Shown: positions 7,904 through 57,335, numbered from the stretch's first letter. The stretch is 57,335 nt of DNA from Candidatus Buchananbacteria bacterium RIFCSPHIGHO2_02_FULL_56_16 (GCA_001817495.1 MHIL01000023.1:1-57335), one strand, 5' to 3'. Notes: a model not told the origin generated them from the sequence alone. Numbers and translations: made by a program.

Positions 7904-9739
7904 TCAGTTGTTGCCGTGATACTTTCGTTTCGTGTTGACGTACCAATCTTCAATGTTGTTGAAGCGGTCGGCGGGGAGAATAATTCGATGGACGTCGAGC
8001 CCTTTAATTTTTTGATCGGCGACGTAGGTGTAGGTCGGGTTGTAGAGGAAGATGGCCGGCAGGTCGGCAAGGATCGTTTCCTCGAACGTCCGGTACAGCG
8101 GCTGGCGGGCGGCCTCATCGGCGGCTTTGCGCGCATCCTCCAGCGCCTTATCAACGTTGCGGTTGGCGTACAGCGCCAGGTTCAAGCCGGGATCCTGGAC
8201 CTGCGAGGAGTGCCAGAACGGGAAGGGGTCGGGATTTGAGCCGACGATGATGCCGAAGAGCAGCGCCTCGTAGCGGCGCGGCTTGATGACGTCGCGGCTG
8301 ATTCGGCCGCCGCTGATGATCTCGAGTTCAACCTTGACGCCGACCGCCCGCCAGAAATCTGAAACCAGTTCCGCTGCCTTGACGTTCTCCGACTGATCGA
8401 CGGTGGTCAGCTTGACAGTTAAAATCTTTTCTCCCTGCTGGCGGTAGAACGCTTGAGTCGGCTCGCCACGCTTCGCGGGCGAAGCGGGCTGGTCGTCACC
8501 GACCAGCTTCGCAGTATCAGTCGTCGTCGCCTGGCTCGCCGTTGTCGCTTCGGTCGTCGTCGCAGTCTCGGTTTGACGGGCGAGCCAGTCAGCGTACTCT
8601 AGGGGCGTGATTTGCTTCCAGCCGGCCTGATCGAGCAGCGCGCTGGCTTGGGTGGGGTCGTAGGCAATCTTTGGCAGATTGTTTCCGGCGTCGGTCGAGC
8701 CCGGCAGGATCGGTCCGTCAATGATTTCACCTTCGAGCTGGAGCGCCTGGGAGAGAATCGCCGGTTTGTCGATCGCCAGCGCCAGCGCCTGGCGGACGTC
8801 TTTGGTGGCGAGCGACTCGTTCTCTTTTTGGTTGAAAAAAACCGCGGTGTACTGGGGGAGTGCGAGCGAGTACTGGTTGAGGTTCTTGAGTCCCGCCAGG
8901 TCTTTCTTGAGATCTTTGGGCAGAAAGCTCAAGCCCTCGATTGAATTATTTTTTAAGGCTTGGATGCCGGTTTGAAAATCGGGGTAAAACTTGAAGGTGA
9001 GTTTTTCGAGAAAGGGTTTGGATCCGTAGTAGTACGGGTTAGGTACCAGGGTGTACGATCTGATGTTACCGAGCCGGTCTTTGGTCAGCGACTTAAATTG
9101 CCAGGGTCCGGCGCCGACTGGCCGGAGGTTATACTCGGTCAGGTTGGCGTTGACCGGCGGAATTTCACCCCAGATATGTTCAGGCAACAAGCCGAAGGTC
9201 ATCACCTCCAAAAAATCGGGGTACGCTTCCGGCAGGCTGAAGCTGACCGTCCGGTCGTCAATTTTCTTAACCTCGACGCCCCGCAGGCTCACCAGGAGCG
9301 GACTCTTGAAGTCGGGGTCCTGGATGCTCTTGACCGTGAACACGACATCGTCGGCGGTGAGGGGCTGGCCATCGTGCCAGCGCAGGTTTTCCCGCAAGAC
9401 GAAGGTGTAGGTCGTCTGAGCTTCATCAATTTCCCAGCGCTCGGCCAGGTCCGGCGCGAGCTCGAGGCTCTTATCGTAGGCGACCAGACCCGAGAAGATG
9501 AGCCGGGCGAGGTCCGAATCAACGTCGTTGGTTTGCGAGAGGAGGGGATTGGCGTACTGCGGCGCGCCGATCAACCCTTCGGTGTACTCGCCGCCGGCGA
9601 CCGGCACGGGAATAAAGTTCTGCAGGTAGAAGCTACCGGCGATAAAAATCAACGAGCCGACCAGCGCCGCCATCGCTCCTCGAAACAGCCGCCGTTCCTT
9701 GGTTGAGAGGACTTTGGGCAGATGCTTGAGTTGCCGCAA
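7904..9739 (-). CDS. Membrane-anchored ABC-transporter family-5 (peptide/nickel, OppA/DppA-like) solute-binding protein; start codon uncertain
   Basis: It has an N-terminal TM anchor followed by a typical SBP_bac_5 layout (..LRWHDGQPLTADDVVFT.., ..NPYYYG.KP.L..). No permease or ATPase gene is adjacent. Confidence 0.75.
   Translation of the reverse strand: MRQLKHLPKVLSTKERRLFRGAMAALVGSLIFIAGSFYLQNFIPVPVAGGEYTEGLIGAPQYANPLLSQTNDVDSDLARLIFSGLVAYDKSLELAPDLAERWEIDEAQTTYTFVLRENLRWHDGQPLTADDVVFTVKSIQDPDFKSPLLVSLRGVEVKKIDDRTVSFSLPEAYPDFLEVMTFGLLPEHIWGEIPPVNANLTEYNLRPVGAGPWQFKSLTKDRLGNIRSYTLVPNPYYYGSKPFLEKLTFKFYPDFQTGIQALKNNSIEGLSFLPKDLKKDLAGLKNLNQYSLALPQYTAVFFNQKENESLATKDVRQALALAIDKPAILSQALQLEGEIIDGPILPGSTDAGNNLPKIAYDPTQASALLDQAGWKQITPLEYADWLARQTETATTTEATTASQATTTDTAKLVGDDQPASPAKRGEPTQAFYRQQGEKILTVKLTTVDQSENVKAAELVSDFWRAVGVKVELEIISGGRISRDVIKPRRYEALLFGIIVGSNPDPFPFWHSSQVQDPGLNLALYANRNVDKALEDARKAADEAARQPLYRTFEETILADLPAIFLYNPTYTYVADQKIKGLDVHRIILPADRFNNIEDWYVNTKRKYHGNN
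8460..8489. repeat. 30-nt in-frame palindromic element (copy in the solute-binding protein gene)
   Basis: The sequence is ggctcgccacgcttcg-cggg-cgaagcgggc, read as [10 protein letters not shown] inside a Thr/Ala-rich insertion. Confidence 0.85.
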
Positions 9740-16294: not shown

Positions 16295-16296
16295 GC

Positions 16297-16352: not shown

Positions 16353-16382
16353 GTCTGTAGGTACAATCCATCAAACGTATAT

Positions 16383-20008: not shown

Positions 20009-20039
20009 AGACGAGGCATTGCCTCGTCTCTACGTGTAC
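19999..20039. repeat. 41-nt near-perfect palindrome (20-bp arms) spanning the stop codon of the FemAB gene
   Basis: The arms are gtacacgtagagacgaggca and tgcctcgtctctacgtgtac, separated by one t. The TAG stop at 20006-20008 lies in the left arm. Confidence 0.8.
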
Positions 20040-20057
20040 GTGCCCCTCGCGGTGAAT

Positions 20058-21230: not shown

Positions 21231-21330
21231 GTGAGTAAGTCAAGATAAGTCAAGTAAGTGAAGTAAGTAAATTAAGTAAATTAAGCTGGCAAGCTGGCAA
21301 GCAAACTTGCTCACTTGTAAATTTACTAGC
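21231..21330. repeat. Stop-codon-rich spacer, word family 2
   Basis: It contains aagtaagtaaattaagt at 21261-21277 and the tandem aagctggc-aagctggc, and forms an imperfect inverted repeat (gtgagtaagt / acttgctcac). Confidence 0.6.
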
Positions 21331-36600: not shown

Positions 36601-38430
36601 GGCGTCAATCAGTCACAAGCAGGTGCCTACTACAAACAAGGCGATCTAACCAAGGCACAAAAGACTTTCCTCGGGGATAAATATCATACGCAGTTGTTAA
36701 ATGAAGGGGTTGATGAAAAAACGGCGGTAGAGAGGTGGGCGGCTTTCGACGAGACATTGGACAAGGTTGGTTCCCTCCGGATGACCAATAATAGCGGCTA
36801 TGCCTCACGCCTTGAAACCGGCCGTCATGAACGGGCCCACCCGGAAATTGAGAAGCTTGCTCCAGCCCAGATTGATGAAATCTACAATTCAATTGAGAGC
36901 GACCGCCGACTCCAGATGGAAGCTGAAGTCAAGGCTCGGTGGGGTAACATTAGTCCGCTGGATGCCAAGAAAGAAATTCTGACCCAGGGTTTGGCCAGCT
37001 ACGGCCGTTCAGATGCCCGCGAACCGTTGCAGCTCACTGACGCGGCGGCTCGAGCCATGGCGGCAACCGGTGCCGTTAAGATGAGCAACGCGGCGAAGCA
37101 GCGGCTCGATCAGGCGTACCCTGAGGCTGCCGTGACCAAGGGAGAACTCAAGACGATTGATAAGCAGCGTGCCGCAACGGCCAAAGCCCAGGCGCGTGAC
37201 GCTAAGGCCGCGGCTCAAGCCGAACGCCAAACCGTTAAGGAACGGCAGCGGCAGCTGCAGCAGCGCGAGGCACAAAACGCGCCGGTATACACCCAGGCGA
37301 TCAGCGCTTTGAGTACGCTCAATCCCAGCCAGCTCGGCCAGCTGTGGGGTAAGCTGTCAGCGGCTCAGCAGTCGGCGCTAACGGAGGAGGTACGAGAATC
37401 CTACCCGGCAGCCGCCCGCTCTGTTCCTGTTGGCGATTACAACTTGCAGCTGGCGGCGTTGAGCCGGGCGCTGGCGCGAACGAATCTCGAACCGGCGGCG
37501 AAAGATAGTTTGCATCTCGACGCAACCGTCGTCGAGGCGATAAAGAGCCAGGGAATCGATACGGCATCAGTCGGTACTAAAAATGAGCTTTACCGTCAGG
37601 CGCAGCAAACTCAGGGTACCTACCAGCAGCGCCGCACCGAGTATGAGCAGCTAGCGGCTCGGAAGGCTAACTACGGTGATGCGATGCGGCAGAAACAGGC
37701 GGAAAACAACGCCGAGGTTAAGCAGCGGAATGAAGCGGCCCGCACCGCCGCCAGCCGTGGCGATATGCCAGCCGCCGCAGAGGCAAGAAAGATGGCTGAA
37801 TTCTTACAAAAAGAGAACGCTCGCATTGACCAAGATGTGGCCAAAAAAGGCAAAGAATTTGACGTTGATATTAATAAAGCAAAGTCAAAAATGCAAGCCG
37901 CGTTGGATCAGGTTATGGATTTGGAAACTCGGCGTCGACCCGAACCATCAGTACCGCAAGCCGTCCACCAAGCCTTCTCAACCGTTGCTCACCCGGTCAA
38001 TGAACAAGCCCGCCAGCAGGCGCAGCAGGTTATTGCGCAGGCGCCACCGGCCGAGGTTGTTGCGGCAGCGCAGGAAGCAGTAGATAAAGAAGGTGAAGAG
38101 CTGAAGCGGGCGACAGGCAGTGCTGATAACGGGGCAATCCTTGCGGTATTGACGAGTATTGAGAGTATTTTGGAGGGGGTGAAATCATCACTTGACAAAT
38201 TATCTGGAGACAAGGTTAATAGCGCTGAGCGGTCGCACTTTGATGACCTCATGCGTCAAGTCAGTTTGAGCCGAGGATCGATGGCCGCCGGTGGTCAGCT
38301 CGACCCAGGATCGGTGGCTGGGCTGCTTCGTGATGTCAACAATAATTTAAAGAGCATCTATCGCAAGACTGGTCAAAAAACGGGCAGCATGCCGACGGAA
38401 ATACCACCCAAGACTTCAGGTGAGGAATAA
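33679..38430 (+). CDS. 1583-aa polytopic membrane protein (VirB6/TrbL-like N-terminal region) with a long Ala/Gln/Lys-rich helical C-terminal extension
   Basis: It has a signal peptide and about 6-8 TM segments in aa ~90-400. About 1150 aa of soluble, coiled-coil-like sequence follows. The functional call comes from topology and context only. Confidence 0.45.
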   Translation: MKTWRNILNRRTVLTALCLFALAVTVFTVAVSAPLVLAQEEPPRPTSDYEQDDLGPLEAGSSGAFNTRPTPVKKAEAEESNVFLSTFVNLLVGGLARIVIWLEGFVITALIAILLLVVKYNSFATAGAVSNGWTLVRDVANLFFVVVLLGIALATILRVESYNFKKLLPKLILMAILVNFSKVIAGLIIDFAQVVMLTFVAAFAGVSGAGNMVTTLQIQSIITYNWSNAAEASAANFTGTALLMAIMLLITIGVLLVMLVVLVMRIVMLWVLVVLSPLAYIMAAFPQGQRYAQQWWQEFTKYVIVGPVLGFFLWLTFAVASAGDIAQKEFGSQKGLAAAGAGDALSAKLAKQAGVQTKIGQTDHLLSFIIAIAMLMGSLVITQQIGVAGSQFAGSMFNKIRQTGLKALLAPGRAVGWTAKTAAKAPFQFVGRKVNEAIGEGKLPAWASPAGMVRGWGARRAELYDVSKRKAAAAGHEKWEQLFTGTSLPRVSQIELAEESKFAKDFADVYDKEQMAAEWVGLRNAPQSAEIRAKKRGLIKAGGVAGFLDDIMAHPETKAHTRNYIKNLYKTTKDDQLKAAMDEKDEKTGLSLMDNVNDDKGAWYNWQTLHFFLQESLGSDQAGMTTMQTLEDIGKKNGHPEYGGHDTYRSSLEGGHDEMEMERIYDQKDAAGKIIRKSGQKRMQTELSKMQGRSRLGLAPHAFMAMNNDGTYAMGMPERLAATAMFGAQGARIFEHSQKRDWTMAMGGSPDEVNWVEGQETEVANFDKPDASLRNIINHAKGFAFLMQSAANPREPVDVIVKTAWKTTGGKGEPQFQVNGKVYGADEFLSEFGEQAHATPSPAPTPGSAPAPGPSAPMADIDIAKHERTKQAIDAFSAQTGLSAADFYQSRSYKADQYTAQGDFERNEQLMGGWRQEIGRIRPDVDQANPEAVEQAIREEQGKVRGVKSASGKGEGEQAGVGLDFSDKDVQRIFGVNQSQAGAYYKQGDLTKAQKTFLGDKYHTQLLNEGVDEKTAVERWAAFDETLDKVGSLRMTNNSGYASRLETGRHERAHPEIEKLAPAQIDEIYNSIESDRRLQMEAEVKARWGNISPLDAKKEILTQGLASYGRSDAREPLQLTDAAARAMAATGAVKMSNAAKQRLDQAYPEAAVTKGELKTIDKQRAATAKAQARDAKAAAQAERQTVKERQRQLQQREAQNAPVYTQAISALSTLNPSQLGQLWGKLSAAQQSALTEEVRESYPAAARSVPVGDYNLQLAALSRALARTNLEPAAKDSLHLDATVVEAIKSQGIDTASVGTKNELYRQAQQTQGTYQQRRTEYEQLAARKANYGDAMRQKQAENNAEVKQRNEAARTAASRGDMPAAAEARKMAEFLQKENARIDQDVAKKGKEFDVDINKAKSKMQAALDQVMDLETRRRPEPSVPQAVHQAFSTVAHPVNEQARQQAQQVIAQAPPAEVVAAAQEAVDKEGEELKRATGSADNGAILAVLTSIESILEGVKSSLDKLSGDKVNSAERSHFDDLMRQVSLSRGSMAAGGQLDPGSVAGLLRDVNNNLKSIYRKTGQKTGSMPTEIPPKTSGEE

Positions 38431-38456
38431 TCAGTTACTATATAATGAAATGAGTC

Positions 38457-39707
38457 ATGATTGACAATCGTTTAGAAAAAATAAAAAAAATCACGCCAGA
38501 CCAGTTAGAGACGGCCGATATTTTGGATTTGTTAAAACTTTTAACCAGTGGGTACTTGGACGGTTTTCAAGTTGGCGAAGCCAAGGAACTTTGGTGGGCA
38601 TTAAGTCGGCTGATCACTGGTCTTCAAGCTAAAACCATAAGTCAAAAAACAATGAACCAAGTTAATCGCTTGATGGTTGACTTAGGTTGGTTGGCTTTGC
38701 CTTTTTTACCGGATTCGGCAGTTGAAAATTTATTTAAGGCTGATTTATTAAGAGCCCTTAGCCTTGAAATTGACGTCTTGGCAAAAATAAAAACTTTTTT
38801 TAGTTTTTCTTACGGTAATTTTAATTTACTGGAACAGCAGCGTCGGCTGATGATTAGCGCGCTTAAAATAAATGAAGAATTAATTGGCGATCGGGCAATA
38901 AAAATTTCCGACGTCGGTGAAGAAGTGGCGCCGGCGATTAAAAATTGGTTAAAGGATTATGATCAGTCCAGTAACGTCAATCAGCGCTCAAGGCGCTTAA
39001 ATCTAGTTGAGTATATTAACACTAATAATAATGTTCGTCAGCTGTCAGCTGAGCAAAAGGAAACATTGCGCCGGGTTTTGCAAGTTTATGATTTTGTCCG
39101 ATTTTTAAACCAGCTAGAAAGTGTTAGTGAAACCGGCCACAAAATTCCAGCGGAAAAAGTAACTGTTTTGGACCGAGAGGACCTGGCATCATCACCGGTC
39201 GAAGACGAATCATCTAAAGAGCAGCAAGAAATTTTTCAGGCTTATCAAGGTGATCAAAAACGGGCCAAGGCAATCGACCGCGAGCAGGCAAAGCTGGCCA
39301 AAAAAATCAGCGGCAAGGTTGACCAGCTCCCCGCCATTTTTTACCAGGCGGTTCAGACCAAAAACGTTGCCGCCACCGTCGCCGCGCTGCGGCTGATGGC
39401 CGAAACTGACACGCTGGGAAACTTTTTGCAAACCGATGAGAAGCTCAAGCAATTTTTGAGCCTGACCTGGGAAAAACAGTATGGTAAGGCGACGGCCGAG
39501 GCGTTTAAGCGCAACCCGAATCAGCCGAAGTTCGTCAGGCTATTCTTACAGTACGTTTTGCAGCAGCGGCTGGGTTTGGACAGCAGCGAAGCGGCGCGGC
39601 TGGGGCTGCACATCGGCAATATATTTGTCAAGAGTGGCAAAAAAGAGTATAATAGGCTGGCGTACTTTGACGTGAAGAGCAAGCAGTTTAGGTGGTTTGA
39701 AGGCTAG
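38457..39707 (+). CDS. Hypothetical protein (416 aa), AT-richer than its surroundings
   Basis: It is a long ORF with coherent codon usage and a helical, Lys/Glu-rich sequence. I recognised no motif. Confidence 0.6.
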   Translation: MIDNRLEKIKKITPDQLETADILDLLKLLTSGYLDGFQVGEAKELWWALSRLITGLQAKTISQKTMNQVNRLMVDLGWLALPFLPDSAVENLFKADLLRALSLEIDVLAKIKTFFSFSYGNFNLLEQQRRLMISALKINEELIGDRAIKISDVGEEVAPAIKNWLKDYDQSSNVNQRSRRLNLVEYINTNNNVRQLSAEQKETLRRVLQVYDFVRFLNQLESVSETGHKIPAEKVTVLDREDLASSPVEDESSKEQQEIFQAYQGDQKRAKAIDREQAKLAKKISGKVDQLPAIFYQAVQTKNVAATVAALRLMAETDTLGNFLQTDEKLKQFLSLTWEKQYGKATAEAFKRNPNQPKFVRLFLQYVLQQRLGLDSSEAARLGLHIGNIFVKSGKKEYNRLAYFDVKSKQFRWFEG

Positions 39708-39719
39708 GCCAAGCGTATC

Positions 39720-39754
39720 AGGAATTAGGAATTAGGTTGTAGCTTGTAGTTCTT
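39720..39754. repeat. Left arm of the inverted repeat bracketing the four-helix-bundle gene
   Basis: The reverse complement of aggaattaggaattaggttgtagcttgtagttctt matches 40160-40194, apart from a 7-nt indel and one mismatch. Confidence 0.75.
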
Positions 39755-39798
39755 TAGTAACAATCAACATGGCGCCATTCATTATTAATACTGTTACT

Positions 39799-40161
39799 AT
39801 GGCGCAAGTTGTGAGTTACCGAGATCTCACCGTTTGGCAGCGGTCAATGGAGCTCGTTGTTGCTATTTATACCTTAACTGACCAGTTGCCCGACGCCGAA
39901 AAATATGGGTTAACTGCTCAAATGAGACGTGCCGCTATTTCAATCCCTTCAAACATAGCCGAAGGGAGACGGCGGAGCAGCCGGAAAGATTTTCGTCAGT
40001 TTCTCATTATCGCATACGGTTCAGGTGCAGAACTCGAAACTCAAATTGAAATTGCCAAGAGATTATCATTTATTCAAGCTGAAAATTCTAAAAAGTCAGA
40101 GCTGCTACTTGGGGAAGTGATGAGAATGCTCAATAAATTGCAATCAATTCTGAAAAGCTAA
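39799..40161 (+). CDS. Four-helix-bundle protein of the 23S rRNA intervening-sequence (IVS) protein family
   Basis: It has the hallmark sequence YRDL.VWQ....L...IY.LT..LP..EKYGL..QMRRAA.SI..NIAEG..R.S.K.F..FL.IA.GS..E..T. Confidence 0.85.
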   Translation: MAQVVSYRDLTVWQRSMELVVAIYTLTDQLPDAEKYGLTAQMRRAAISIPSNIAEGRRRSSRKDFRQFLIIAYGSGAELETQIEIAKRLSFIQAENSKKSELLLGEVMRMLNKLQSILKS

Positions 40162-40254
40162 GAACTACAACCTAATTCCTAACTCCTAACTCCTAACTCC
40201 TAACTCCTAACTCCTAACTCCTAACTCCTAACTCCTAACTCCTAACTCCTAACT
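40160..40254. repeat. Right arm of the inverted repeat, followed by a (TAACTCC)x10 perfect heptamer microsatellite just upstream of metK
   Basis: The arm is aagaactacaacctaattcc. Ten perfect TAACTCC units span 40180-40249, followed by a partial unit. The metK ATG is at 40259. Confidence 0.9.
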
Positions 40255-40258
40255 AAAC

Positions 40259-41425
40259 ATGCCCAAACGCTACATCTTCACCTCCGAGTCGGTAACCGAG
40301 GGCCATCCCGACAAAATTTGCGATCAGATTTCTGACGCTATCTTAGATGAATTGATAAAGCAGGATCCCCACTCGCACGCGGGCATCGAGACGCTGGTGA
40401 CTACCGGATTGGTCGTGGTTGCCGGTGAAATCAGAACTAAGGGGTACGTTGATATCGCCGCGGTCGTCCGCAAGACGATCAGAGAAATCGGCTACGATGA
40501 CCACGCCATCGGCTTCCACTGGGAGGATTGCGGGGTGATGGTGGCGATTGACGAGCAGAGCCCGGACATCGCGCAGGGCGTTGACGCCGGTCGCGGTAAG
40601 TTTAAAAAACAGGGCGCCGGCGACCAGGGGTTGATGTTCGGCTACGCGACGCGCGAAACGCCCGAGCTGATGCCGCTGCCGATCATGCTGGCTCATAAGC
40701 TGACCCACCGGCTGGCTCAGCTGCGCAAGAATAAGACGATGCCGTACCTGCGGCCGGACGGCAAAGCCGAAGTGGCGGTCGAGTACCTCGGCGGCAAGCC
40801 GCGGCGGGTTGACACGGTTGTCATCGCCGCCAGCCACGGCGAGCACGTGCACGAGCAGCGGGTGGAGCGCGACGTCATCAATAAGGTGATTAAGCCGATC
40901 TGCAAGCGCTACCTCGACGGCAAGACGCGGTTCTTCGTCAACGCTACCGGCCGGTTCGTCAAGTGCGGCCCGCCTTCGGACGCGGGGCTGACCGGCCGAA
41001 AAATTATCGTTGACACCTACGGCGGCCAGGGCAGCCACGGCGGCGGCGCGTTCTCCGGCAAAGATCCTTCCAAGGTTGACCGGTCGGCGTCATACATGGC
41101 GCGCTATGTCGCCAAGAACATCGTGGCGGCCGGACTGGCCGACCGTTGCGAGCTGCAGGTGGCGTACGTGATTGGCGTCGCCGAACCGATCAGCATTCTG
41201 GTTGACACGTTTGGTACCGGAACGATCAGCGAAGAGCGAATCGTCAGCCTGGTGAAAAAGCACTTTCCGCTGACGCCGCAGGGAATCATAACGCACCTCA
41301 AGCTGCTGCGGCCAATCTACCGCGCCACCGCCGCCTATGGCCACTTCGGCCGGAGCGGATTTAGCTGGGAGCAGACGGACATGGCAGCGAAGTTACGGCG
41401 CGCAGCCGGGTTGAAATCCCAATAA
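40259..41425 (+). CDS. metK: S-adenosylmethionine synthase
   Basis: It has [28 protein letters not shown] and other canonical MAT motifs. Confidence 0.97.
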
Positions 41426-41568: not shown

Positions 41569-42870
41569 ATGGCCGCTGATCAGCCAAATAAAAACGACGA
41601 ATTTTTTCAGCTCCTAGCCGCCGAGCCCGGCGGGCCGGGCGGTACCGCTGTCCGGAATCCGTTTAATGATGACGAGATTGTCTTTCGGGATGAACGCGGC
41701 GAAATTAAGGTGCTCAAGGGAAAACAGGTAACGCCGTTAGCTCGGGCCGGCGTCCAGCGGCGGGAATCAACCGGTCCGGCGGTTGAGCCGGCTTCACCGC
41801 CCCCCGAACCGCTTCCGGCAGCGCCGCCGCCAGCGACCGCCGGCCTGCCGTCGCCGAGCGCGTCGATTGCTCAAGCCGCGACGCGTCACCGGCAGGCTAT
41901 TGCCGACACCGTGGAGTCAATCACCGCCAGCCATCAGCTCAAAAAAACTTTTGCCGAAGCAGCGCTCGAGAAACGATTTAAAAATCTAATCCTCTCGATG
42001 CTGACCGGCGTGCGTAACGCCGTCGAGACGAGGGAGATGCTCACCCGGCCAGTGGCGGAAGGCGGCCTGGAATTTAGCCAGCCGGAAGCGGCAGACGTGC
42101 TGGCGGCTATTGATCAAGCGAACCGTTCAATCACCGGTCAGGCTCACCACCAGCCGCCACCGGCGTTGAGCCTTGAAGGTCAGCAGCTGTTGAGCGATAC
42201 CGCCGCACCGGCTCCGCCCACGCTCACCTTCACCGACCCGCTACGCCCGCGTAGCGTGGCGAGCCCGATCCTCACATCGGCTGTCGCTCCGTCATCCTCG
42301 CCGCTGCCGCCGGTTGCCCCGCCAAATCCGATAGCGCCGCCCCGCCCCGTGAAGGCGTTTCAAGAGCCGCCGGCTCCGGTGGTTGCCGTCCGGCCCAGGC
42401 CAGCGGCCGCTGCCGAGACGCCAATTGGTCGTCAGACGGTTCAACCGGCGGAAGGCTCGCCACGCTTCGGCGGCGAAGCGGGCTCGCCACGCTTCGGTGG
42501 CGAAGCGGGCAGACCGAAGATCGAGGATGTAAAGTTTAAGCCAAAATCAATGGGTCCGGTCGAGGAGATTGGCGCGCTCACGGCGCTCGATTTCCGCCGG
42601 CTCGGCGCCAACCCGAACGAGGCGGGTCTGGCGATTATGGAAAAAATTGAGCAGCTGGAGCAGGAGTCGTTTAGCCAGCGGATCGCGGCGATTAGGGCCT
42701 GGCAGGACAGCCCCGTCTACCGGCTGTACCTCGAGCTCGGCGGCGCGAGCATGGAAGAGAAGAAGCCGGTCGCGACCGTCATCGCCGAACGGCAGGCGGC
42801 GCGCACGCCAACGCTGACCGAACCGGAGTTTGAGGCGATTTCGGATTTAAACCAGAAGCTAAGACATTAG
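41569..42870 (+). CDS. Pro/Ala-rich hypothetical protein (433 aa) carrying three copies of the palindromic element
   Basis: It is a long ORF with a disordered Pro-rich middle and a conserved-looking helical C-terminus. It is bracketed by a perfect 19-bp inverted repeat. Confidence 0.65.
   Translation: MAADQPNKNDEFFQLLAAEPGGPGGTAVRNPFNDDEIVFRDERGEIKVLKGKQVTPLARAGVQRRESTGPAVEPASPPPEPLPAAPPPATAGLPSPSASIAQAATRHRQAIADTVESITASHQLKKTFAEAALEKRFKNLILSMLTGVRNAVETREMLTRPVAEGGLEFSQPEAADVLAAIDQANRSITGQAHHQPPPALSLEGQQLLSDTAAPAPPTLTFTDPLRPRSVASPILTSAVAPSSSPLPPVAPPNPIAPPRPVKAFQEPPAPVVAVRPRPAAAAETPIGRQTVQPAEGSPRFGGEAGSPRFGGEAGRPKIEDVKFKPKSMGPVEEIGALTALDFRRLGANPNEAGLAIMEKIEQLEQESFSQRIAAIRAWQDSPVYRLYLELGGASMEEKKPVATVIAERQAARTPTLTEPEFEAISDLNQKLRH
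42237..42265. repeat. Inverted-orientation copy of the in-frame palindromic element with compensatory stem changes
   Basis: The sequence is cccgctacgcccgcgtagcgtggcgagcc. Its stem is cgctacg/cgtagcg instead of cgcttcg/cgaagcg, and it is read as [10 protein letters not shown]. Confidence 0.8.
42454..42510. repeat. Two tandem copies (27-nt period) of the in-frame palindromic element
   Basis: The sequence is ggctcgccacgcttcg-gcgg-cgaagcgggctcgccacgcttcg-gtgg-cgaagcgggc, read as GSPRFGGEAGSPRFGGEAG. Confidence 0.9.
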
Positions 42871-43094
42871 TTTAGAAATTCTAAGCACTAAATCCTAGAA
42901 CGAGCTGTTAGCTTCATTGAGGAGTTAGGAATTAGCTTTTTAGCTTCCGAGTTGCCGAGACTTACCGTTTCCTCAAAAGCTACAAGCTAAGAAGCTACTT
43001 CCTAAAAATCTAACAGCCGCTAAAAGCTATAAGCTATCTTTGGTCATTTGGATTTATGTAGAGTTGAGAGCTTAGGATTTAGGATTTTGATAAA

Positions 43095-43562
43095 ATGCAG
43101 CAATTCGTCGTCCCCCAATTCATTGACGTTGAAGATAAAATCATCGGTCCGATCACCGTTCGGCAATTTTTGATTTTGCTGGCCGGCGCCGGGGTGTCCT
43201 TTGTCGCCTACAAGCTCTCCGACCTCACCCTCTTTGTCTTTGAGTTCGCGGTCATCTCGCTCATCTTCTTCACCTTCGCGTTCATCAAAATTAACGGCAA
43301 GCCGATTCACTATCTCTTCCTTAACCTCATTCAAACTTCTCGTCGCGCCCGCTTGCGGGTGTGGAAGAAAAAAGTTTTTCATAAGGCCGAGCTGCATAAG
43401 TTGAGTAAAGAAAAAAAAGCCGAGCTGCCGGTGGTGGTTATCGCCAAAAATAAGGTCAAGGCTTCGCGGCTGGCCGAGCTGTCGCTGATCGTTGACACGG
43501 GCGGCATCTACCAGGGCGAGGCGCTCCCGCTGGCTAAGGGCGGCAAGGAGCAGCTGTTATGA
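43095..43562 (+). CDS. PrgI-family (VirB3-like) small T4SS membrane protein
   Basis: It has the N-terminal VPQFIDVEDKIIGPITVRQF motif followed by two TM helices. Its stop overlaps the next start (ATGA). Confidence 0.65.
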   Translation: MQQFVVPQFIDVEDKIIGPITVRQFLILLAGAGVSFVAYKLSDLTLFVFEFAVISLIFFTFAFIKINGKPIHYLFLNLIQTSRRARLRVWKKKVFHKAELHKLSKEKKAELPVVVIAKNKVKASRLAELSLIVDTGGIYQGEALPLAKGGKEQLL

Positions 43563-44236
43563 AATCAAAAAAGTTAGCCGGTAAAAAAGTTCAGGCCTCC
43601 ACCCAGCAGTACCTCGACATCGCGGAGATTAAAGAGGACACGGTGGTGCTCAAAGACGGAACGCTGCGGTCGGTCATCTTGGTCTCGAGCATTAACTTCG
43701 CCCTCAAATCGGAAGACGAACAGAACGCGATTATCGCCGCTTACATCAGCTTTTTGAACTCGCTCGATTTTCCGCTCCAAATTTCTATCCAGTCGCGGGT
43801 GCTGGACGTTGACGGCTACCTCGACCGGCTCAAGAAGCTGGAGAAAGAGCAGACCAATGAGCTGCTCCGCATCCAGACGACCGAGTACCGCCAGTATGTC
43901 TCTGAACTCGTCAAGCTCGGCGACATCATGACCAAGCGGTTCTACGTAGTCGTGCCGTACGATCCGGTTTCCGACAAGCAAAAGTCGTGGCGGAACCGGT
44001 TCACGGAAGTTTTCAGCGCCGCCAGCGACCTTAAGCTGAACCAGGAGCAGTTCCTCAAGCGCCGGCGCGCGCTGTCGCAGCGGGTTGAGCACATCCTTAG
44101 CTACCTGGCGAGCATGAGCCTTAAGGCAGTGGTGCTCGACACCCAGAGCCTGATTGAGCTCTACTACAACACCTACAACCCCGGGCTGTACAAGCGGGAG
44201 AAGCTGGTTGAGGTTAATAAAATTCAAGTTGAGTAG
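43559..44236 (+). CDS. VirB4/TrsE-type N-terminal domain encoded as a separate ORF
   Basis: The STQQYLDIAEIKEDTVVLKDG.LRSV..VSSINF.LKSEDEQ..II..Y..FLNSLDFP.QI pattern resembles the N-terminus of Gram-positive-type VirB4 ATPases. It ends 2 nt before the ATPase ORF, in another frame. Confidence 0.5.
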   Translation: MKSKKLAGKKVQASTQQYLDIAEIKEDTVVLKDGTLRSVILVSSINFALKSEDEQNAIIAAYISFLNSLDFPLQISIQSRVLDVDGYLDRLKKLEKEQTNELLRIQTTEYRQYVSELVKLGDIMTKRFYVVVPYDPVSDKQKSWRNRFTEVFSAASDLKLNQEQFLKRRRALSQRVEHILSYLASMSLKAVVLDTQSLIELYYNTYNPGLYKREKLVEVNKIQVE

Positions 44237-44238
44237 CC

Positions 44239-46158
44239 ATGGCGATTACCCCGCGGACAATCAAAGAGCAAGAGCAGCGCCGCTTGTTGCCGCCCGAGGC
44301 GGCAGTCGCGCCGGCCGAGCAGCGCGAGCGCGAGGCGGGAGCGGCGGCGGCGGAAAAATCAGTCATCGAGGAGGAACGAATCTTCCGCGAGGGCGTGGTT
44401 TCGATCAAAGACCTGATCAGCCCGGCCGCGATGGAGGTCAACCCGCGCTTCATTAAGCTCGGCGAGCGGTTCGCGAGCACGCTGTTCGTCATCAGCTATC
44501 CGCGCTACATCTCGATCGGCTGGTTCGCGCCGATCATCAACCTAAGCGTGGCGCTGGACATCTCGATGTTTTTTTATCCGGTGAAATCCCACATCATCTT
44601 AAAGCAGCTGCGGAAGAAAGCCGGCGCGCTGGAAGCCCAGCTGCTCTCGGACCGGGAGAAGGGCGCGCCGCGCGATCCGGTGCGTGAGACGGCGCTGCGC
44701 GATATTGAGAAGCTGCGCGACGACCTCACCCAGGGTACCGAGCACTTTTTTCAGTTCGGCCTGTACGTCACCGTCTACGCCGACACCAAAGAAGAGCTCG
44801 GCCGGCTGACCGAAGACATTGAGTCACTCTTCGGCTCGCGCCTCGTGTACTCCAAGAAGGTGCTCTACCAGGCGGAGCAGGGATTTAACTCCACCCTGCC
44901 GATGGGCAACGATGAGCTGATGATTGGGTTTAACATGAACTCATCGCCGATCGCCGCTTCATTTCCGTTTATTTCCTCCGAACTAACCTCCGACGACGGC
45001 GTGCTCTACGGCATCAACCGGCACAATAACAGTCTGATCCTCTTCGACCGGTTCTCCCTCCAGAACGCCAACACGGTGGTGTTCGCCACCTCCGGCGCCG
45101 GCAAGAGCTACGCGATCAAGCTCGAGGTGCTCCGGAGCATGATGCTGGGCACCGACGTGCTGGTGATTGACCCGGAGCGCGAGTACAAGCACCTCGCCGA
45201 CGCGGTCGGCGGGACCTACATCAACATTTCGTTGAGTTCAGAGAGCAAGATTAACCCCTTCGACCTGCCGCGGCCTATCGGCGAGCAGCGGACATCTGAT
45301 ATCATCCGGGCGTCGGTCATCACGCTCAAGGGTCTGCTGCGTCTGATGCTGGGCAGCCTCACCCACCAGGAGGACTCGATCATTGACCGGGCGCTCCTGG
45401 AAACGTACGCCAAGAAAGACATTACCTCGGAGTCCGATCTCGCCAAGATCGAACCGCCGATCATGCAGGACTTGCAAGACGTGCTCGAGGGTATGGAGGG
45501 CGCGGCTGATTTGGCGCTGCGCCTTAAGAAGTACACCCAGGGGACGTTCTCCGGCCTGTTCAACAGCCCGACCAACGTTGACGTTAATAACCAGCTCGTG
45601 GTCTTTTCGGTCCGCGACCTCGAGGATGAGCTGCGGCCAATCGCCATCTACACGATTGTCACCTACATCTGGAACGTGGTGCGCTCGAAGCTGAAGAAAC
45701 GCCTCCTGATTATTGACGAAGCCTGGTGGCTGATGCAGAATGAAGATTCGGCCAAGTTCATCTACGCGCTGGTCAAGCGCTGCCGCAAGTACTACCTCGG
45801 CGTGACCAACATTACCCAGGACGTCAATGACTTTCTGCTTTCGCCCTACGGCCACGCCATCGTCAATAACTCGGCGCTCCAGCTCTTGATGCGCCAGTCG
45901 CCGGCGGCGATCGACCTCGTCCAGCAAACCTTTTTGCTGACCGAGGGTGAGAAGTACCTCCTCCTCGAGTGCGGGGTGGGCGAGGGGATTTTTTTCGCCG
46001 GCGAGAAGCACGCCGCGATTAAAGTCGTCGCCTCCTATTCGGAAGACCAGCTGATCACGTCTGATCCGCGCCAGCTCCTGGAAATTGAAGAGGCCAAGCG
46101 GGAGTTTGAGCAGCAGCTGCCAAACCAAGAGCCCGCGGCTGAACCAGCCGCTCCCTAG
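44239..46158 (+). CDS. VirB4-like T4SS ATPase
   Basis: It has Walker A (FATSGAGKSY) and Walker B (RLLIIDEAWWLM). It also has the upstream ISP....V.....KLG.....TLF...YPRY...GW pattern typical of VirB4/TraE. Confidence 0.8.
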   Translation: MAITPRTIKEQEQRRLLPPEAAVAPAEQREREAGAAAAEKSVIEEERIFREGVVSIKDLISPAAMEVNPRFIKLGERFASTLFVISYPRYISIGWFAPIINLSVALDISMFFYPVKSHIILKQLRKKAGALEAQLLSDREKGAPRDPVRETALRDIEKLRDDLTQGTEHFFQFGLYVTVYADTKEELGRLTEDIESLFGSRLVYSKKVLYQAEQGFNSTLPMGNDELMIGFNMNSSPIAASFPFISSELTSDDGVLYGINRHNNSLILFDRFSLQNANTVVFATSGAGKSYAIKLEVLRSMMLGTDVLVIDPEREYKHLADAVGGTYINISLSSESKINPFDLPRPIGEQRTSDIIRASVITLKGLLRLMLGSLTHQEDSIIDRALLETYAKKDITSESDLAKIEPPIMQDLQDVLEGMEGAADLALRLKKYTQGTFSGLFNSPTNVDVNNQLVVFSVRDLEDELRPIAIYTIVTYIWNVVRSKLKKRLLIIDEAWWLMQNEDSAKFIYALVKRCRKYYLGVTNITQDVNDFLLSPYGHAIVNNSALQLLMRQSPAAIDLVQQTFLLTEGEKYLLLECGVGEGIFFAGEKHAAIKVVASYSEDQLITSDPRQLLEIEEAKREFEQQLPNQEPAAEPAAP

Positions 46159-46171: not shown

Positions 46172-46247
46172 CTGACTACTGACTACTGACTACAGACTAC
46201 AGACTACTTACTACTACTTACTACTACTTACTACTACTTACTACGGT
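46172..46247. repeat. One-armed tandem arrays of family-1 words: (TGACTAC)x3, (AGACTAC)x2, (TTACTACTAC)x3.7
   Basis: I read these directly. The complement 11-mer ctactgactac occurs at 46176 and 46183. Confidence 0.85.
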
Positions 46248-46830: not shown

Positions 46831-46860
46831 TAAGTTAGTAAAGTAAGCAAGACAAGGAGG

Positions 46861-50883: not shown

Positions 50884-50910
50884 AGGCAAAATTAACAGCA
50901 GGTAAGCTGG

Positions 50911-50961
50911 TAAGTAAATTAAGTAAAGTAAGTGGATAGGCTCATGGGCTTAATTTACTTA
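50911..50961. terminator. Hairpin (word family 2) between convergent recG and the L,D-transpeptidase gene
   Basis: The 13-bp stem pairs taagtaaattaag (50911-50923) with cttaatttactta (50949-50961). Confidence 0.5.
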
Positions 50962-53762: not shown

Positions 53763-53842
53763 GGTCAGTAAGTAGTAAGTAGCCGGTAGTCAGTAGGGCT
53801 CCGTTGAGTCTCTACTGACTACTCACTACCGACTACTGACTA
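53763..53842. repeat. Intergenic hairpin, word family 1
   Basis: gtagtcagtag (53786-53796) pairs with ctactgactac (53812-53822). The loop and right arm are homologous to 3275-3312. Confidence 0.7.
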
Positions 53843-54832: not shown

Positions 54833-57335
54833 CAGCGAAAGGTTAGGCTGTCGTGCTCGACGTCAATGGTGATGGTGTCGCACGGCTGGCTCAAGACGAC
54901 GTGGGCGATATGATGTTCAATCAAGTTCTGAATGTTTTGGCGGATTGCTCGCGCCCCGCCCTCGGGTAAGTAACTTTGGGCAGCGAGCAGCCGGGCGACC
55001 GCCGGCGTAGTGGTGACGGTCACACCTTGCGCGTTGAGCCGCTCCACGAGCTCGGCGAGCTGGAGTTCGGCGATGGCGGTCAGGTGCTGGCGCTCGAGCG
55101 GCTGAAAGACGACGATACGATCGAGACGGTTTAGAAATTCGACCGGCAGCTGCTGTTTAAGCTGCTTGAGCACCTGCTGTTCGGCGGCGGCAAAGCTATG
55201 GGTAATCTGTCGGTGTTCAGCTGGCGTTTGGGCGTCAAAGCCCAGCGCGGCCTGTTGCCGAAACTGGTCCGAGCCGATGTTCGAGGTCATGATGACAATG
55301 GTATTTTTGAAATTAATTTTTTTGCCGGTAGCGTCGGTCAGGTGGCCGTCTTCGAGGATTTGAAGCAAGAGGTTAAAGATGTGGGGGTGAGCTTTCTCAA
55401 TCTCGTCGAAGAGAACGACCGAGTAGGGCCGGCGCCGGACGAGGTCGGTGAGCTTCGTGCCCTCGCGGTAGCCGACGTAGCCGGCCGGCGCGCCGATCAG
55501 TTTCGAGATGTTGAAGCTCTCGGCGAACTCGGACATGTCAATTCGAACCAGAGCGTCGGGATTGTTAAAGACGGTCGCGGCCAGCACCTTGGCCAGCTCG
55601 GTTTTACCCACCCCGGACGGCCCCAGGAACATGAATGACCCGACCGGACGGTTGCTGCTGGCGATGCCGGCCCGGGCCCGGCGGATGGATTGCGCCACCG
55701 CAGCGAGCGCTTCAGGCTGGCCGATGATTTTTTTAGCCAAAAGCTGCTCGAGCTTGAGCAGGCGGGCTTTTTCCGTCGCCAGCAGGGTGGCGGTGGGCAC
55801 GCCGGTTACGTGGGCGACGATCGCGGCGACGTCGGCCGCGGTTACGACTGCCAGCGGCTTGCGCTGCTTGGCGGTGCGCTGGGCGCGCAGCGCCGTCAGC
55901 TGCTCGGTAAGCGCTTCAGCCTGCTGCTTGTAGTCCAGCGCGCTCGAGAACTCGCCCCGGTGGACCTTGTCGGCTTTTTTATCGGCCAGCACCCCGAGCG
56001 TGTCTTCTATTTTTTTTATCTCCAAAAAGAGCCGGTCGGTTCCCTGCTTGATCTTGATCGCCGAAGCGGCTTCGTCAATCAGGTCAATGGCTTTGTCGGG
56101 CAGGAAGCGGTCGGTGAGGTAGCGCTCGGAGAGCTCCGCCGCCGCGGCGATGGCATCGTCACCGATGGCAACCTGGTGAAACGTTTCGTAGCCGGGCTTG
56201 ATTCCCTGGAGGATTTGAACGGTTTTTTCGACGTCGGGCTGGTTGACGATGATCGGCTGAAACCGCCGCTCGAGCGCCGCGTCAGGCTCAATGTACTTTT
56301 TGTAATCTTCAAGGGTAGTGGCGCCGATGCAGCGGATTTCGCCGCGGGCCAGGGCGGGTTTTAAGATGTTGGCCGCGTCCATCGAGCCGGCGGCCGAGCC
56401 GGCGCCGATGATGTTGTGCAGCTCATCAATGAACAGGATGATCGAGGGGTCGTTTTTGACTTCGAGCAGGATTTGCCGGAGGCGGTTTTCAAACTCGCCG
56501 CGGAAGCTCGTGCCGGCGACCACGGCGCTGATGTCCAGGGCGTAGATCTTTTTGTCGCTCAAAAACTCCGGAACATGGCCTTCCACGATCTGCTTGGCTA
56601 ACCCTTCGGCGATCGCGGTTTTGCCGACCCCGGGATCACCCAGCAGCACCGGGTTGTTTTTGGTCCGGCGGGACAAGATTTGGATCAGCCGTTCAATCTC
56701 CGCCTCGCGGCCGATGACCGGGTCAATCCGTTTCTGGCTGGCACGGTCGGTCAGGTTGGTGGCAAAAAAGTCCAGGCTCAAGGCCGGGGCAGCTTTTGCC
56801 TCCCGGCCAAAGCCCAACACCGGCCGTTCGCGCTCGCCACGCTTCGCGGGCGAAGCGGGCTCGCCAAAGTCGGGCTCGGCGATGGCGCCCAGCAGGTCGG
56901 GGAACTTCGCCGCGCTGTGCAGCGCCGTGAGGACCTGGCGGCGGAGGGTTTCAGCGTCAACGCTGGTGGCGGTCAGGAAGTCGTTGATTTTTTCGTCGTT
57001 CAGCTCGAGCAGCGCCGCCAGCAGGTGCTCGGTGCCGACGTAGCAGTGGCGGTTGTAACTCGCCGCCAGGACCGACTTTTCCAGCAGCTTCTTGCTCGAG
57101 AGGTTGAGCGTCACCTCGGTCAGGCGCGTGCTCGCTACCGCATCATCTTTGATCGTCTGCTTAAACTTGAGCGAGTCAAAGCGCGCCTGGGCCAGAATCG
57201 CCGCGCCGACGCTGCCGCGCTGCTGGGCCAGGCTGTGGAGGATGTGGCGGGGACTGACGCGCTGGTGGCCTAACGAAACCGCCAGGCCGAACGCGTTTTT
57301 GAGCGTCTGCTTGGAGTGGGCGGTGAACTGTTGGA
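54832..57335 (-). CDS. clpC: ClpC-type AAA+ chaperone ATPase, 5'-truncated by the window edge
   Basis: The frame stays open upstream of the ORF-track GTG, and my translation gives a first Clp_N repeat (..[18 protein letters not shown]..). It has two AAA modules (GDPGVGKT and GPSGVGKTE Walker A) and a short M-domain. Confidence 0.9.
56831..56860. repeat. 30-nt in-frame palindromic element (copy in clpC, in the linker between the N-domain and AAA1)
   Basis: The sequence is cgctcgccacgcttcg-cggg-cgaagcgggc, read as [10 protein letters not shown]. Confidence 0.85.

What the first reader, a model, noticed from the sequence alone, without database searches (positions are those of the whole stretch)
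42237..42510. A 30-nt hairpin element inserted in frame in unrelated genes (RPE-like); three copies in one gene, one inverted with compensatory stem changes
The sequence (G/C)GCTCGCCACGCTTCG-NNGG-CGAAGCGGGC occurs at 4886, 8460, 42454, 42481 and 56831, with invariant arms and only the 4-nt loop varying (TTGG, CGGG, GCGG, GTGG, CGGG). It folds as 7 bp + A.G mismatch + 3 bp. An inverted copy at 42237-42265 has cgctAcg/cgtAgcg instead of cgctTcg/cgAagcg, a compensatory double change that keeps the stem. The element is 30 nt long (27-nt period in tandem), a multiple of 3, and I verified it has no stop codon in any of the six frames. It is translated in three different frames: [10 protein letters not shown] in three minus-strand genes, GSPRFGGEAG twice, and PLRPRSVAS once. 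The hosts are a glycosyltransferase, a solute-binding protein, ClpC and a Pro-rich protein. Conservation at the nucleotide and structure level rather than the peptide level points to a mobile or templated palindromic element that colonises coding sequence. The known analogue is Rickettsia palindromic elements, and I am not aware of this being described for this kind of genome.
Basis: seen in the sequence. Interest (0 to 1): 0.85.

Follow-up and report, generated by a model that had tools for sequence, protein, structure and literature searches.

The report
Mobile 27-base hairpin inside genes
A 27-base DNA hairpin repeat in an ultra-small groundwater bacterium sits inside essential genes without breaking them, adding nine amino acids to flexible loops. 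It is present or absent between near-identical strains, resembles known bacterial REP repeats, and occurs almost letter for letter in unrelated bacteria and a phage.

Summary
Six copies of (G)CTCGCCACGCTTCG-NNNN-CGAAGCGGG(C) lie in the window, against 0 expected by chance, and all are inside four genes of a Candidatus Buchananbacteria (CPR/Patescibacteria) genome.

The unit is 27 nt, not 30. It is gained or lost cleanly. Near-identical strains lack exactly 9 aa in ClpC and in the TPR membrane protein. A pheT allele that is 100% identical over 2.4 kb lacks exactly 54 nt, which is two nested copies, and there is no target duplication.

Arms are almost invariant and the 4-nt loop is hypervariable. 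Copies occur in coding DNA (four reading frames) and in intergenic DNA. Coding inserts fall in disordered linkers.

The same 27-mer, with one stem change, is inserted in frame in purD of an alphaproteobacterial MAG and in a phage ORF.

It is best read as a REP-like mobile hairpin, close to the intragenic REPs and RPE-4/6 already described in other phyla. It lacks the GTAG/CGTC tag. The genome's own REP transposase (RAYT) is flanked by a different, classical GTAG REP, so the mobilising enzyme is unidentified.

I found no description of it in CPR. The verdict is a new variant of a known kind, of moderate-to-high interest.

The parts
4888..4914 (+). 27-nt hairpin copy (loop TTGG). It is read on the minus strand as PASPTKRGE, inside the 681-aa TPR-containing membrane protein gene (3373-5418, -).
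   Evidence: Cluster member P0131 (about 95% identical) lacks exactly PASPTKRGE.
8462..8488 (+). 27-nt hairpin copy (loop CGGG). It is read on the minus strand as PASPAKRGE, inside the SBP_bac_5 solute-binding protein gene (7904-9739, -).
   Evidence: The insert lies in a segment of about 50 aa that has no counterpart in AppA 1xoc.
42237..42263 (-). Inverted variant copy (CGCTACG-CGGG-CGTAGCG). It is read as (D)PLRPRSVAS inside the Pro-rich 433-aa gene (41569-42870, +).
   Evidence: The stem is kept by a paired T>A / A>T change. The 3' arm plus flank resembles the proteobacterial variant.
42456..42509 (+). Two head-to-tail 27-nt copies (loops GCGG and GTGG), read as GSPRFGGEAG twice in the same Pro-rich gene.
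   Evidence: The period is 27 nt. All full-length cluster members keep both copies.
56833..56859 (+). 27-nt hairpin copy (loop CGGG). It is read on the minus strand as PASPAKRGE, in the ClpC gene (54832 to beyond the window end, -).
   Evidence: The ClpC fragment P0126 from a more than 90% identical relative reads FGERER instead of FGE[PASPAKRGE]RER. Orthologues at 64% identity or less lack it. The insert lies in the pLDDT<50 linker 149-190 of the model.

Best explanation
The repeat is a 27-nt, non-autonomous, REP-like mobile hairpin. It has an unpaired 5' (G)CTC followed by a stem of 3 bp, a bulged A and 7 bp, with a free 4-nt loop. It is carried by a Candidatus Buchananbacteria genome.

Shown here:
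- It is dispersed at roughly one copy per 10 kb.
- It occurs in both coding and intergenic DNA.
- It is present or absent as an exact 27-nt unit, or as a 54-nt nested pair, between otherwise identical or near-identical alleles, with no target-site duplication.
- Because its length is 9 codons and its GC-rich arms carry no stop codon, any insertion leaves the host frame intact.
- The copies that persist sit in disordered linkers and variable loops, where nine extra residues are tolerated.

Inferred:
- It moves as single-stranded DNA by a seamless cut-and-rejoin reaction of the HUH/Y1 (RAYT or IS200/IS605-like) type, acting in trans.
- That enzyme recognises the arms and the bulge but not the loop. 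This would explain invariant arms with a hypervariable loop, clean excision, tandem and nested copies, and boundaries at G|CT.
- Which enzyme does this is unknown.
- The near-identical 27-mer in Alphaproteobacteria and in a phage contig implies horizontal spread.
For: - Six copies in the window against 0 in shuffles.
- The window belongs to the MAG with locus tags A3J59_. Other contigs of the same MAG (Ga0155437; the RAYT is 100% identical to A3J59_00810) carry further copies. These lie in PNPase, a 583-aa protein, PheT (nested), a UvrD/PD-(D/E)XK helicase (two copies, one decayed) and two intergenic sites.
- Empty alleles at protein level: P0126 for ClpC and P0131 for the TPR protein each lack exactly 9 aa.
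- Empty allele at DNA level: pheT in L068 is 100% identical over 2.4 kb to L059/L065 except for a clean 54-nt absence. The empty site reads GGCGG|CCGCG, with a boundary ambiguity of 3 nt or less.
- A paralogous empty site exists in the composite repeat of a 46%-GC relative (...tcttG|CTgaaaac).
- Arms are essentially invariant and the loops differ. In the unbiased window there are 5 exact copies and 1 variant. Only about 3 decayed copies were found in 555 kb of fetched DNA.
- In CPR-type sites the 5' flank is G in 25 of 27. The 3' flank starts with C in 19 of 27, and with CT in 13.
- The hairpin folds as described.
- Inserts lie in disordered or variable segments.
- An alphaproteobacterial PurD carries exactly 9 extra aa (TRYASEAWR) relative to PDB 3mjf.
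- A phage-like contig has the element in frame in a 150-aa ORF.
- The same genome runs a REP/RAYT system. Its GTAG REPs are likewise inserted in frame and vary in copy number, by 66 and 111 nt, inside 100%-identical RAYT alleles.
- Published RAYT biochemistry: cleavage at C^T on either side of a REP, dependence on a stem bulge, and a loop that can be irrelevant (PMC3333891, PMC8266576).
Against: - No mobilising enzyme is linked to the element. The only RAYT found in this genome and its relatives is flanked and interrupted by a different, GTAG-tagged REP.
- No RAYT lies next to any copy in about 64 fetched loci, and no transposase is in the window.
- The element lacks GTAG/CGTC. Under the IS608 guide model, a GCTC guide would not predict CT cleavage.
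- Presence/absence could reflect precise loss rather than new insertion.
- Most related loci were fetched with an exact-match pattern, so arm invariance outside the window is partly ascertainment.
- The unit boundaries are ambiguous by 1-3 nt, and by 7 nt at ClpC.
- Translation of the inserts is inferred from intact frames and was not observed.
Confidence: 0.72

Rival explanations
1. The element is a host-beneficial structural hairpin (transcription terminator, mRNA-stability element or protein-binding site). It would be spread by recombination and kept by selection, rather than being a selfish mobile element.
For: Some intergenic copies are followed by T-rich runs (L006, L008, L046). In the 46%-GC relative the hairpin is a fixed side-branch of a long intergenic stem structure of about 115 nt (dG -36.5, z -10.5). 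REPs in other bacteria have such roles (PMC3733652). The arms are strongly conserved.
Against: In this genome 12 of 14 assignable copies lie inside genes, where a terminator would be harmful. Copies occur in either orientation relative to transcription. Strains differ by presence or absence with no other change. Most intergenic copies are followed by CTGAAAAC rather than a T run.
Confidence: 0.12
2. Insertions are ancient, and today's polymorphism is only loss. The palindromes would be deleted precisely by replication slippage or hairpin processing, and the element would no longer be mobile.
For: Palindromes are deletion-prone (general knowledge). The pheT empty allele differs from the filled one by both nested copies at once, which is one deletion step against two insertion steps. 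There is microhomology of up to 3 nt at the junctions.
Against: Old insertions should have diverged arms, yet arms are identical across copies and across genomes of 46-58% GC. Nested and tandem copies with different loops imply repeated insertion. Filled and empty pheT alleles are otherwise identical over 2.4 kb, which points to a fast process. Slippage between 1-3-nt repeats would rarely be exact at every site.
Confidence: 0.1
3. It is an ancestral or convergently selected peptide motif, for example a protease or sorting signal, encoded by similar DNA.
For: PASPAKRGE recurs in three proteins and GSPRFGGEAG in several.
Against: The same DNA is read in four different frames and also lies in intergenic DNA. 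Identity is at the nucleotide level. Near-identical alleles and all ClpC orthologues at 64% identity or less lack it.
Confidence: 0.02
4. It is a sequencing, library or assembly artefact, such as an adaptor or a chimera.
For: One short contig (L058) joins the flanks of two different copies through the repeat. This shows that assemblers can mis-join at the element.
Against: The element is always a 27-nt in-frame unit inside conserved genes. It is found in independent projects and assemblers, including NCBI MAGs, JGI, ENA MEGAHIT contigs and IMG/VR. It carries natural variation in the loop.
Confidence: 0.02

Closest known systems
REP / REPIN elements with their RAYT (TnpA_REP) transposase, including the intragenic REPs catalogued by Di Nocera et al. 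2013 (PMC3733652)
   Same: Both are imperfect palindromes of 20-40 nt with an unpaired 5' tag, a conserved stem irregularity and a short loop. Both are dispersed in many copies, sometimes in tandem or combined with other repeats. Single units have been reported inside ORFs, adding roughly 10 aa, often in repair or replication genes and tRNA synthetases. Here the hosts include a UvrD-type helicase and PheT. A bona fide RAYT and GTAG REPs coexist in the same genome.
   Different: The 5' tag is (G)CTC, not GTAG or CGTC. No RAYT is flanked by this element, because the genome's RAYT has another cognate REP. Most copies in this genome are intragenic. A single hairpin, not a doublet, is the unit that comes and goes. 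The host is a CPR bacterium, for which the paper library returned no REP/RAYT report. The same unit occurs in another phylum and in a phage.
Rickettsia palindromic elements (RPE)
   Same: Both are palindromic repeats inserted in frame in unrelated protein-coding genes of a reduced genome, in several frames, and tolerated in surface or linker regions. According to PMC3733652, RPE-4 and RPE-6 are short CGTC-type REPs.
   Different: RPE-1 is about 100-150 bp (my own knowledge). RPEs are confined to Rickettsia. No sequence similarity was tested. The element here is 27 nt, lacks the CGTC tag and the AT-start stem described for CGTC REPs, and shows strain-level presence/absence.
IS200/IS605-family transposition (TnpA Y1 HUH) and its non-autonomous derivatives
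   Same: Both show seamless insertion and excision without target duplication, dependence on an imperfect hairpin rather than on terminal inverted repeats, and a loose sequence preference at the junction (here G|CT).
   Different: Those elements have two different subterminal hairpins and defined tetra- or pentanucleotide targets, whereas this one is a single hairpin. No TnpA is associated with it. This is a working analogy only.
MITEs (for example Correia/NEMIS, Nezha)
   Same: Both are short, non-autonomous, dispersed and able to sit in or next to genes.
   Different: MITEs are typically 100-400 bp with terminal inverted repeats and a target-site duplication. Here the unit is 27 nt and no duplication is seen.

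Membership tests
REP (repetitive extragenic palindrome) / REPIN-RAYT system | Short (20-40 nt) imperfect palindrome forming a stem-loop, repeated many times in the genome | tested here: met
   The unit is 27 nt with a stem of 7 bp, a bulged A and 3 bp. There are 6 copies in 57 kb and at least 8 more on other contigs of the same MAG.
REP (repetitive extragenic palindrome) / REPIN-RAYT system | Conserved unpaired GTAG (or CGTC) tetranucleotide at one end of the palindrome | tested here: not met
   The unpaired 5' end is (G)GCTC in all CPR-type copies. GTAG occurs only inside the stem of the variant.
REP (repetitive extragenic palindrome) / REPIN-RAYT system | A single-copy RAYT gene flanked by the same REP (a REPtron) | tested here: not met
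   The RAYT of this genome (NF047646, 98.9 bits; identical to A3J59_00810) and its relatives lie between pheS and pheT. They are flanked and interrupted by GGGTAG-N3GGAGC-cTCT-GCTCCN3 REPs, not by this hairpin. tblastn finds no RAYT near any other copy. The whole genome could not be scanned.
REP (repetitive extragenic palindrome) / REPIN-RAYT system | Predominantly extragenic location | tested here: not met
   12 of 14 assignable copies in this genome are intragenic. In the 46%-GC relative most copies are intergenic.
REP (repetitive extragenic palindrome) / REPIN-RAYT system | Cleavage and strand transfer by a Y1 HUH enzyme at C^T next to the hairpin | not testable with these tools
   The only data are compatible junctions. 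The unit starts with CT, and 13 of 27 CPR-type sites are followed by CT.
Rickettsia palindromic elements (RPE) | In-frame insertion of a palindromic repeat in unrelated ORFs, compatible with protein function | tested here: met
   Protein function itself was not assayed.
Rickettsia palindromic elements (RPE) | Sequence or length class of a described RPE family (RPE-1 about 100-150 bp; RPE-4/6 are CGTC REPs with AT-start stems of 8-9 bp and a CCA tail) | tested here: not met
   The unit is 27 nt with a GC-only lower stem, no CGTC tag and no CCA tail (compared with PMC3733652 section 6). No direct sequence comparison with RPEs was possible.
MITE | Terminal inverted repeats plus a target-site duplication | tested here: not met
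   The empty versus filled pheT alleles show no duplication beyond an ambiguity of 3 nt or less.

The most novel reading that the evidence does not exclude
A single 27-nt hairpin is itself the transposing unit. It is moved seamlessly by a still-unidentified trans-acting single-strand DNA enzyme that is not the genome's GTAG-specific RAYT. It is exchanged between CPR bacteria, Alphaproteobacteria and phages with its arms intact. This would make it one of the smallest horizontally shared mobile DNAs known, and a routine source of 9-residue loop insertions in essential proteins of streamlined genomes.
Probability: 0.25. Interest if true: 0.8.

Novelty: new variant of a known kind. Interest (0 to 1): 0.62.

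Why it matters
CPR/Patescibacteria genomes are about 1 Mb in size, streamlined, and usually regarded as poor in repeats (my own knowledge). Here one such genome carries two hairpin repeat families that show strain-level presence/absence. One has a recognisable RAYT and one does not. Both are written in frame into essential genes, including clpC, pheT, pnp, a repair helicase and the RAYT gene itself.

The finding gives a clean natural system in which a single REP-like hairpin, rather than a REPIN doublet, can be seen to come and go between otherwise identical alleles. REP mobility has otherwise been hard to observe directly. It shows how selfish hairpins generate loop insertions in conserved proteins. 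It also raises a concrete question about how an almost identical 27-mer comes to be in CPR bacteria, Alphaproteobacteria and a phage.

On the practical side, the repeat causes assembly mis-joins and allele-length differences in MAGs.

Tried and rejected
- Rfam: nothing beyond three tRNAs in the window. Around the element in related loci there were only chance-level sub-threshold hits.
- Literature search for the sequence itself and for REP/RAYT in CPR: no relevant paper.
- BLAST of the 73-nt proteobacterial composite against PLSDB plasmids: one weak partial hit in Sphingobium, which was not informative.
- DNA for the protein-level empty alleles P0126 and P0131: not on record. The DNA-level empty site came from pheT instead.
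- Whether the variable loop derives from the target site: rejected, because the loops are not present in the empty sites.
- 16S rRNA or CRISPR-repeat origin of the arms: considered from memory only, with no convincing similarity, and not pursued.
- RAYT association: contexts of four RAYT homologues all show the other, GTAG-type REP.
- Stop-free frames as a signature of selection: rejected, because chance alone gives 55-64%.
- The multiple alignment of whole loci mis-aligned the left end of L068. Only the 54-nt pheT indel there is real.

Full report
**Observation**

The pattern GCTCGCCACGCTTCG-NNNN-CGAAGCGGGC occurs on the + strand at 4887, 8461, 42455, 42482 and 56832. A three-mismatch variant (CGCTACG...CGTAGCG) lies on the - strand at 42236-42264. 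No match was found in 100 dinucleotide-preserving shuffles. A looser search for the stem alone found nothing further in the window.

All six copies lie inside long ORFs:
- a 681-aa protein with C-terminal TPR repeats (3373-5418, -);
- an SBP_bac_5 solute-binding protein (7904-9739, -);
- a Pro-rich 433-aa protein with no Pfam hit (41569-42870, +), which holds three copies;
- ClpC (54832 to the window end, -).

As single-stranded DNA the unit folds into 7 bp, a bulged A and 3 bp, with GGCTC unpaired at the 5' end. The last pair uses the first flanking base.

**Source organism**

Exact protein look-ups place the window on a 61.7-kb contig of a Candidatus Buchananbacteria MAG from the Rifle aquifer data, with locus tags A3J59_. 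The nearest ClpC relatives, at 64% identity or less, are Buchananbacteria and other Patescibacteria.

**The element is a 27-nt unit that comes and goes**

- Within 90%-identity protein clusters, a ClpC fragment (P0126) reads ...EPDFGERER... where the window has ...EPDFGE[PASPAKRGE]RER....
- A version of the TPR protein about 95% identical (P0131) reads WRDPPADRRW where the window has WRDP[PASPTKRGE]PANRRW. Each difference is exactly 9 aa.
- ClpC orthologues of other CPR bacteria also lack the segment, which falls in the length-variable linker after the N-domain.
- At the DNA level, other contigs of the same MAG were recovered. They carry a RAYT protein 100% identical to A3J59_00810.
- In pheT, four assemblies carry two nested copies: an inner 27-mer inserted between the 5' arm and the loop of an outer copy.
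- A fifth assembly (L068) is 100% identical over the whole 2.4-kb gene but lacks exactly those 54 nt.
- The empty site reads CTGGCCGGCGG|CCGCGTCGCG. The junction can be shifted by at most 3 nt, so there is no target-site duplication.
- A paralogous empty site was also found for the composite intergenic repeat of a 46%-GC relative (...cttatcttG|CTgaaaac...).
- The tandem pair in the window has a 27-nt period.

**Census**

One scan of representative genomes found 29 loci. One scan of metagenomes with the perfect-stem pattern found 35 loci. Collapsing duplicates gives 43 distinct sites.

In the window's own genome, copies lie in:
- the four window genes;
- the PNPase C-terminal tail;
- a 583-aa hypothetical protein;
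- PheT (nested pair);
- a UvrD/PD-(D/E)XK helicase (one intact copy and one decayed copy);
- two intergenic sites.

That is 12 intragenic copies against 2 intergenic copies among those I could assign.

Four of the six possible frames are used in real genes: PASxxKRGE, GSPRFxxEAG, PLRxRSVAS and, in purD, TRYASEAWR.

Arms are almost invariant, while the loop takes at least 15 different sequences. The window, which is an unbiased sample, has five exact copies and one variant. Only about three decayed copies were seen in 555 kb of fetched DNA. The fetched loci were selected by exact match, so this is partly ascertainment.

CPR-type sites have G immediately 5' in 25 of 27 cases. They have C immediately 3' in 19 of 27, and CT in 13.

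**Where the inserts sit in proteins**

- The ClpC insert (residues 165-173 of the 840-aa protein) lies in the only long low-confidence coil of an AlphaFold model (residues 149-190, pLDDT<50).
- The SBP insert lies in an extra Thr/Ala-rich segment of about 50 aa that has no counterpart in AppA 1xoc.
- The PheT insert falls between the Pfam matches for the B3_4 and B5 domains.
- Three copies lie in a Pro-rich low-complexity region.

This pattern is what purifying selection on random in-frame insertions would leave.

**The stop-free claim**

The five canonical copies have no stop codon in any frame. The variant contains TAG. However, 55-64% of composition-matched random 27-mers or hairpins are equally stop-free, and 212 of 256 possible loops keep all frames open. 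The property is a consequence of GC-richness and is not evidence of selection. What matters is the length of nine codons.

**Beyond CPR**

The same 27-mer with one stem change (CGCTTCG-CTGG-CGTAGCG, giving a T.T mismatch) occurs in several places:
- It is present in many copies in two 'Proteobacteria bacterium' MAGs and in other alphaproteobacterial MAGs. There it is usually embedded in a longer conserved repeat.
- It is a solo unit in purD of an alphaproteobacterial MAG. PurD there reads GAP[TRYASEAWR]VVIKADG and has exactly nine residues more than solved PurD 3mjf.
- It is also a solo, in-frame unit (GSPRFAGVAG) in a 150-aa ORF of an IMG/VR contig, next to an uncharacterised 316-aa ORF (possibly a terminase, judged by eye only).

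The window's inverted variant shares its 3' arm and the next bases (CGTAGCGGGTCGG) with the proteobacterial form. A 23-position exact match is not expected by chance in these collections (my estimate is about 0.02 matches in 596 Gb). The families are therefore related, by descent or by transfer.

**What moves it**

A contig of the same genome encodes a REP-associated tyrosine transposase (NCBIfam NF047646, 98.9 bits against a cut-off of 80; Pfam Y1_Tnp) between pheS and pheT. This synteny is conserved in other Buchananbacteria.

Its flanks, and its own coding sequence, hold a different and classical REP: GGGTAG-N3GGAGC-cTCT-GCTCCN3. RAYT alleles that are otherwise 100% identical differ by 22 aa and 37 aa of such units. 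That REP occurs in the window as two intergenic inverted doublets (5552-5615 and 16296-16356).

So the lineage has a REP/RAYT system that shows copy-number polymorphism and writes hairpins in frame into genes. But the finding's hairpin is not that RAYT's evident cognate:
- it has no GTAG;
- no RAYT lies next to any copy;
- the window encodes no transposase.

Published work on TnpA_REP shows cleavage at C^T on either side of a REP, dependence on GTAG and on a stem bulge, and in E. coli a loop with only a structural role (PMC3333891, PMC8266576).

The features seen here are what an HUH/Y1-type single-strand reaction would produce. They are seamless gain and loss, a conserved bulge, a free loop, G|CT junctions, tandem copies and insertion into another copy's loop. 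I therefore take this as the most likely mechanism. It is inference, and the enzyme is unidentified.

**Comparison with what is known**

Di Nocera et al. 2013 (PMC3733652) catalogued GTAG and CGTC REPs in eight phyla. They reported REPs wholly inside ORFs, notably in Opitutus terrae and Rickettsia conorii (where RPE-4 and RPE-6 are CGTC REPs), and often in repair genes and tRNA synthetases. The phenomenon is therefore known.

What differs here:
- the (G)CTC tag;
- the absence of a cognate RAYT;
- a single 27-nt hairpin as the polymorphic unit;
- a majority of intragenic copies;
- the CPR host;
- the near-identity across phyla and in a phage.

Searches of the paper library found neither the sequence nor any REP/RAYT report for CPR. 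Rfam has no matching family.

**Verdict**

The element is a REP-like mobile hairpin and a new variant of a known kind. The mechanism is plausibly HUH-type but unproven. Interest is moderate to high. This is less because of in-frame tolerance, which has precedent, than because of the directly visible turnover of a single hairpin in a streamlined CPR genome and its cross-phylum distribution.

Noticed in passing
window 5552-5615 and 16296-16356: Two intergenic inverted doublets of a classical GTAG-tagged REP (GGGTAG-N3GGAGC-cTCT-GCTCCN3; DNA fold z -5.5 and -8.5). These are REPIN-like and differ from the finding's hairpin. They are the cognate repeats of the genome's RAYT.
   Followed up: yes
L059 5757-6416 (same MAG as the window; equals A3J59_00810), also L065-L068: A RAYT gene sits between pheS and pheT. 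It is flanked by GTAG REPs and interrupted in frame by them. Otherwise identical alleles differ by 22 aa and 37 aa of REP units (P0137 against P0138-P0140). The pheS-RAYT-pheT synteny is conserved in other Buchananbacteria.
   Followed up: yes
window 3231-3340, 13193-13262, 53767-53850; also 16243-16290, 21245-21285, 39720-39750, 40144-40275, 46175-46242, 46834-46856, 50910-50932: Many intergenic regions are built from low-complexity heptamer-like repeats (AGTAGTC, GTAAGTA, CTAACTC). Several are arranged as inverted partners that fold into stems of roughly 15-25 bp (z -3 to -4.3). A 46%-GC relative has an analogous (AAGCAAGATAAG)n / (CTTATCTTGCTT)n hairpin of about 115 nt (z -10.5), which carries the 27-mer as a side branch. 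Their function is unknown. They may be lineage-specific terminators or another repeat family.
   Followed up: partly
L058 (1207-nt metagenome contig): The left flank equals that of the L057/L063 copy and the right flank equals that of the window copy at 4888. This is probably an assembly mis-join through the repeat, or less likely a recombinant.
   Followed up: no
window 20003-20035: A perfect 29-nt palindrome (ACGTAGAGACGAGGC-ATT-GCCTCGTCTCTACGT), GTAG-tagged on both strands, lies exactly between the FemAB-like gene (18983-20008) and the Sua5/YrdC gene (20019-20675).
   Followed up: no
window 23225-33133 and 33679-38430: Two giant ORFs (3302 aa and 1583 aa) have no Pfam match. The first contains internal repeats of about 200 nt (24796-25232, 26764-26984).
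   Followed up: no
window 38000-40300: A low-GC stretch (0.46 against about 0.57) holds a 416-aa ORF with no Pfam hit and a 23S rRNA intervening-sequence protein gene (39769-40161). It is followed by a (CTAACTC)n array directly upstream of metK.
   Followed up: no
window 41569-46158: The Pro-rich host gene, which carries three hairpin copies, lies directly upstream of PrgI-like and VirB4/TraG-like ATPase genes. This is a type IV secretion or pilus-like cluster. A T4SS-pilin/SLT gene pair with a 248-nt internal direct repeat lies at 11212-13150.
   Followed up: no
L075 (IMGVR_UViG_3300009285_009708) 1554-1580: A 2.1-kb viral contig (48.5% GC) carries the proteobacterial variant of the 27-mer in frame in a 150-aa ORF that has CxxC motifs. 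It lies downstream of an uncharacterised 316-aa ORF that looks terminase-like by eye. This was not tested.
   Followed up: partly
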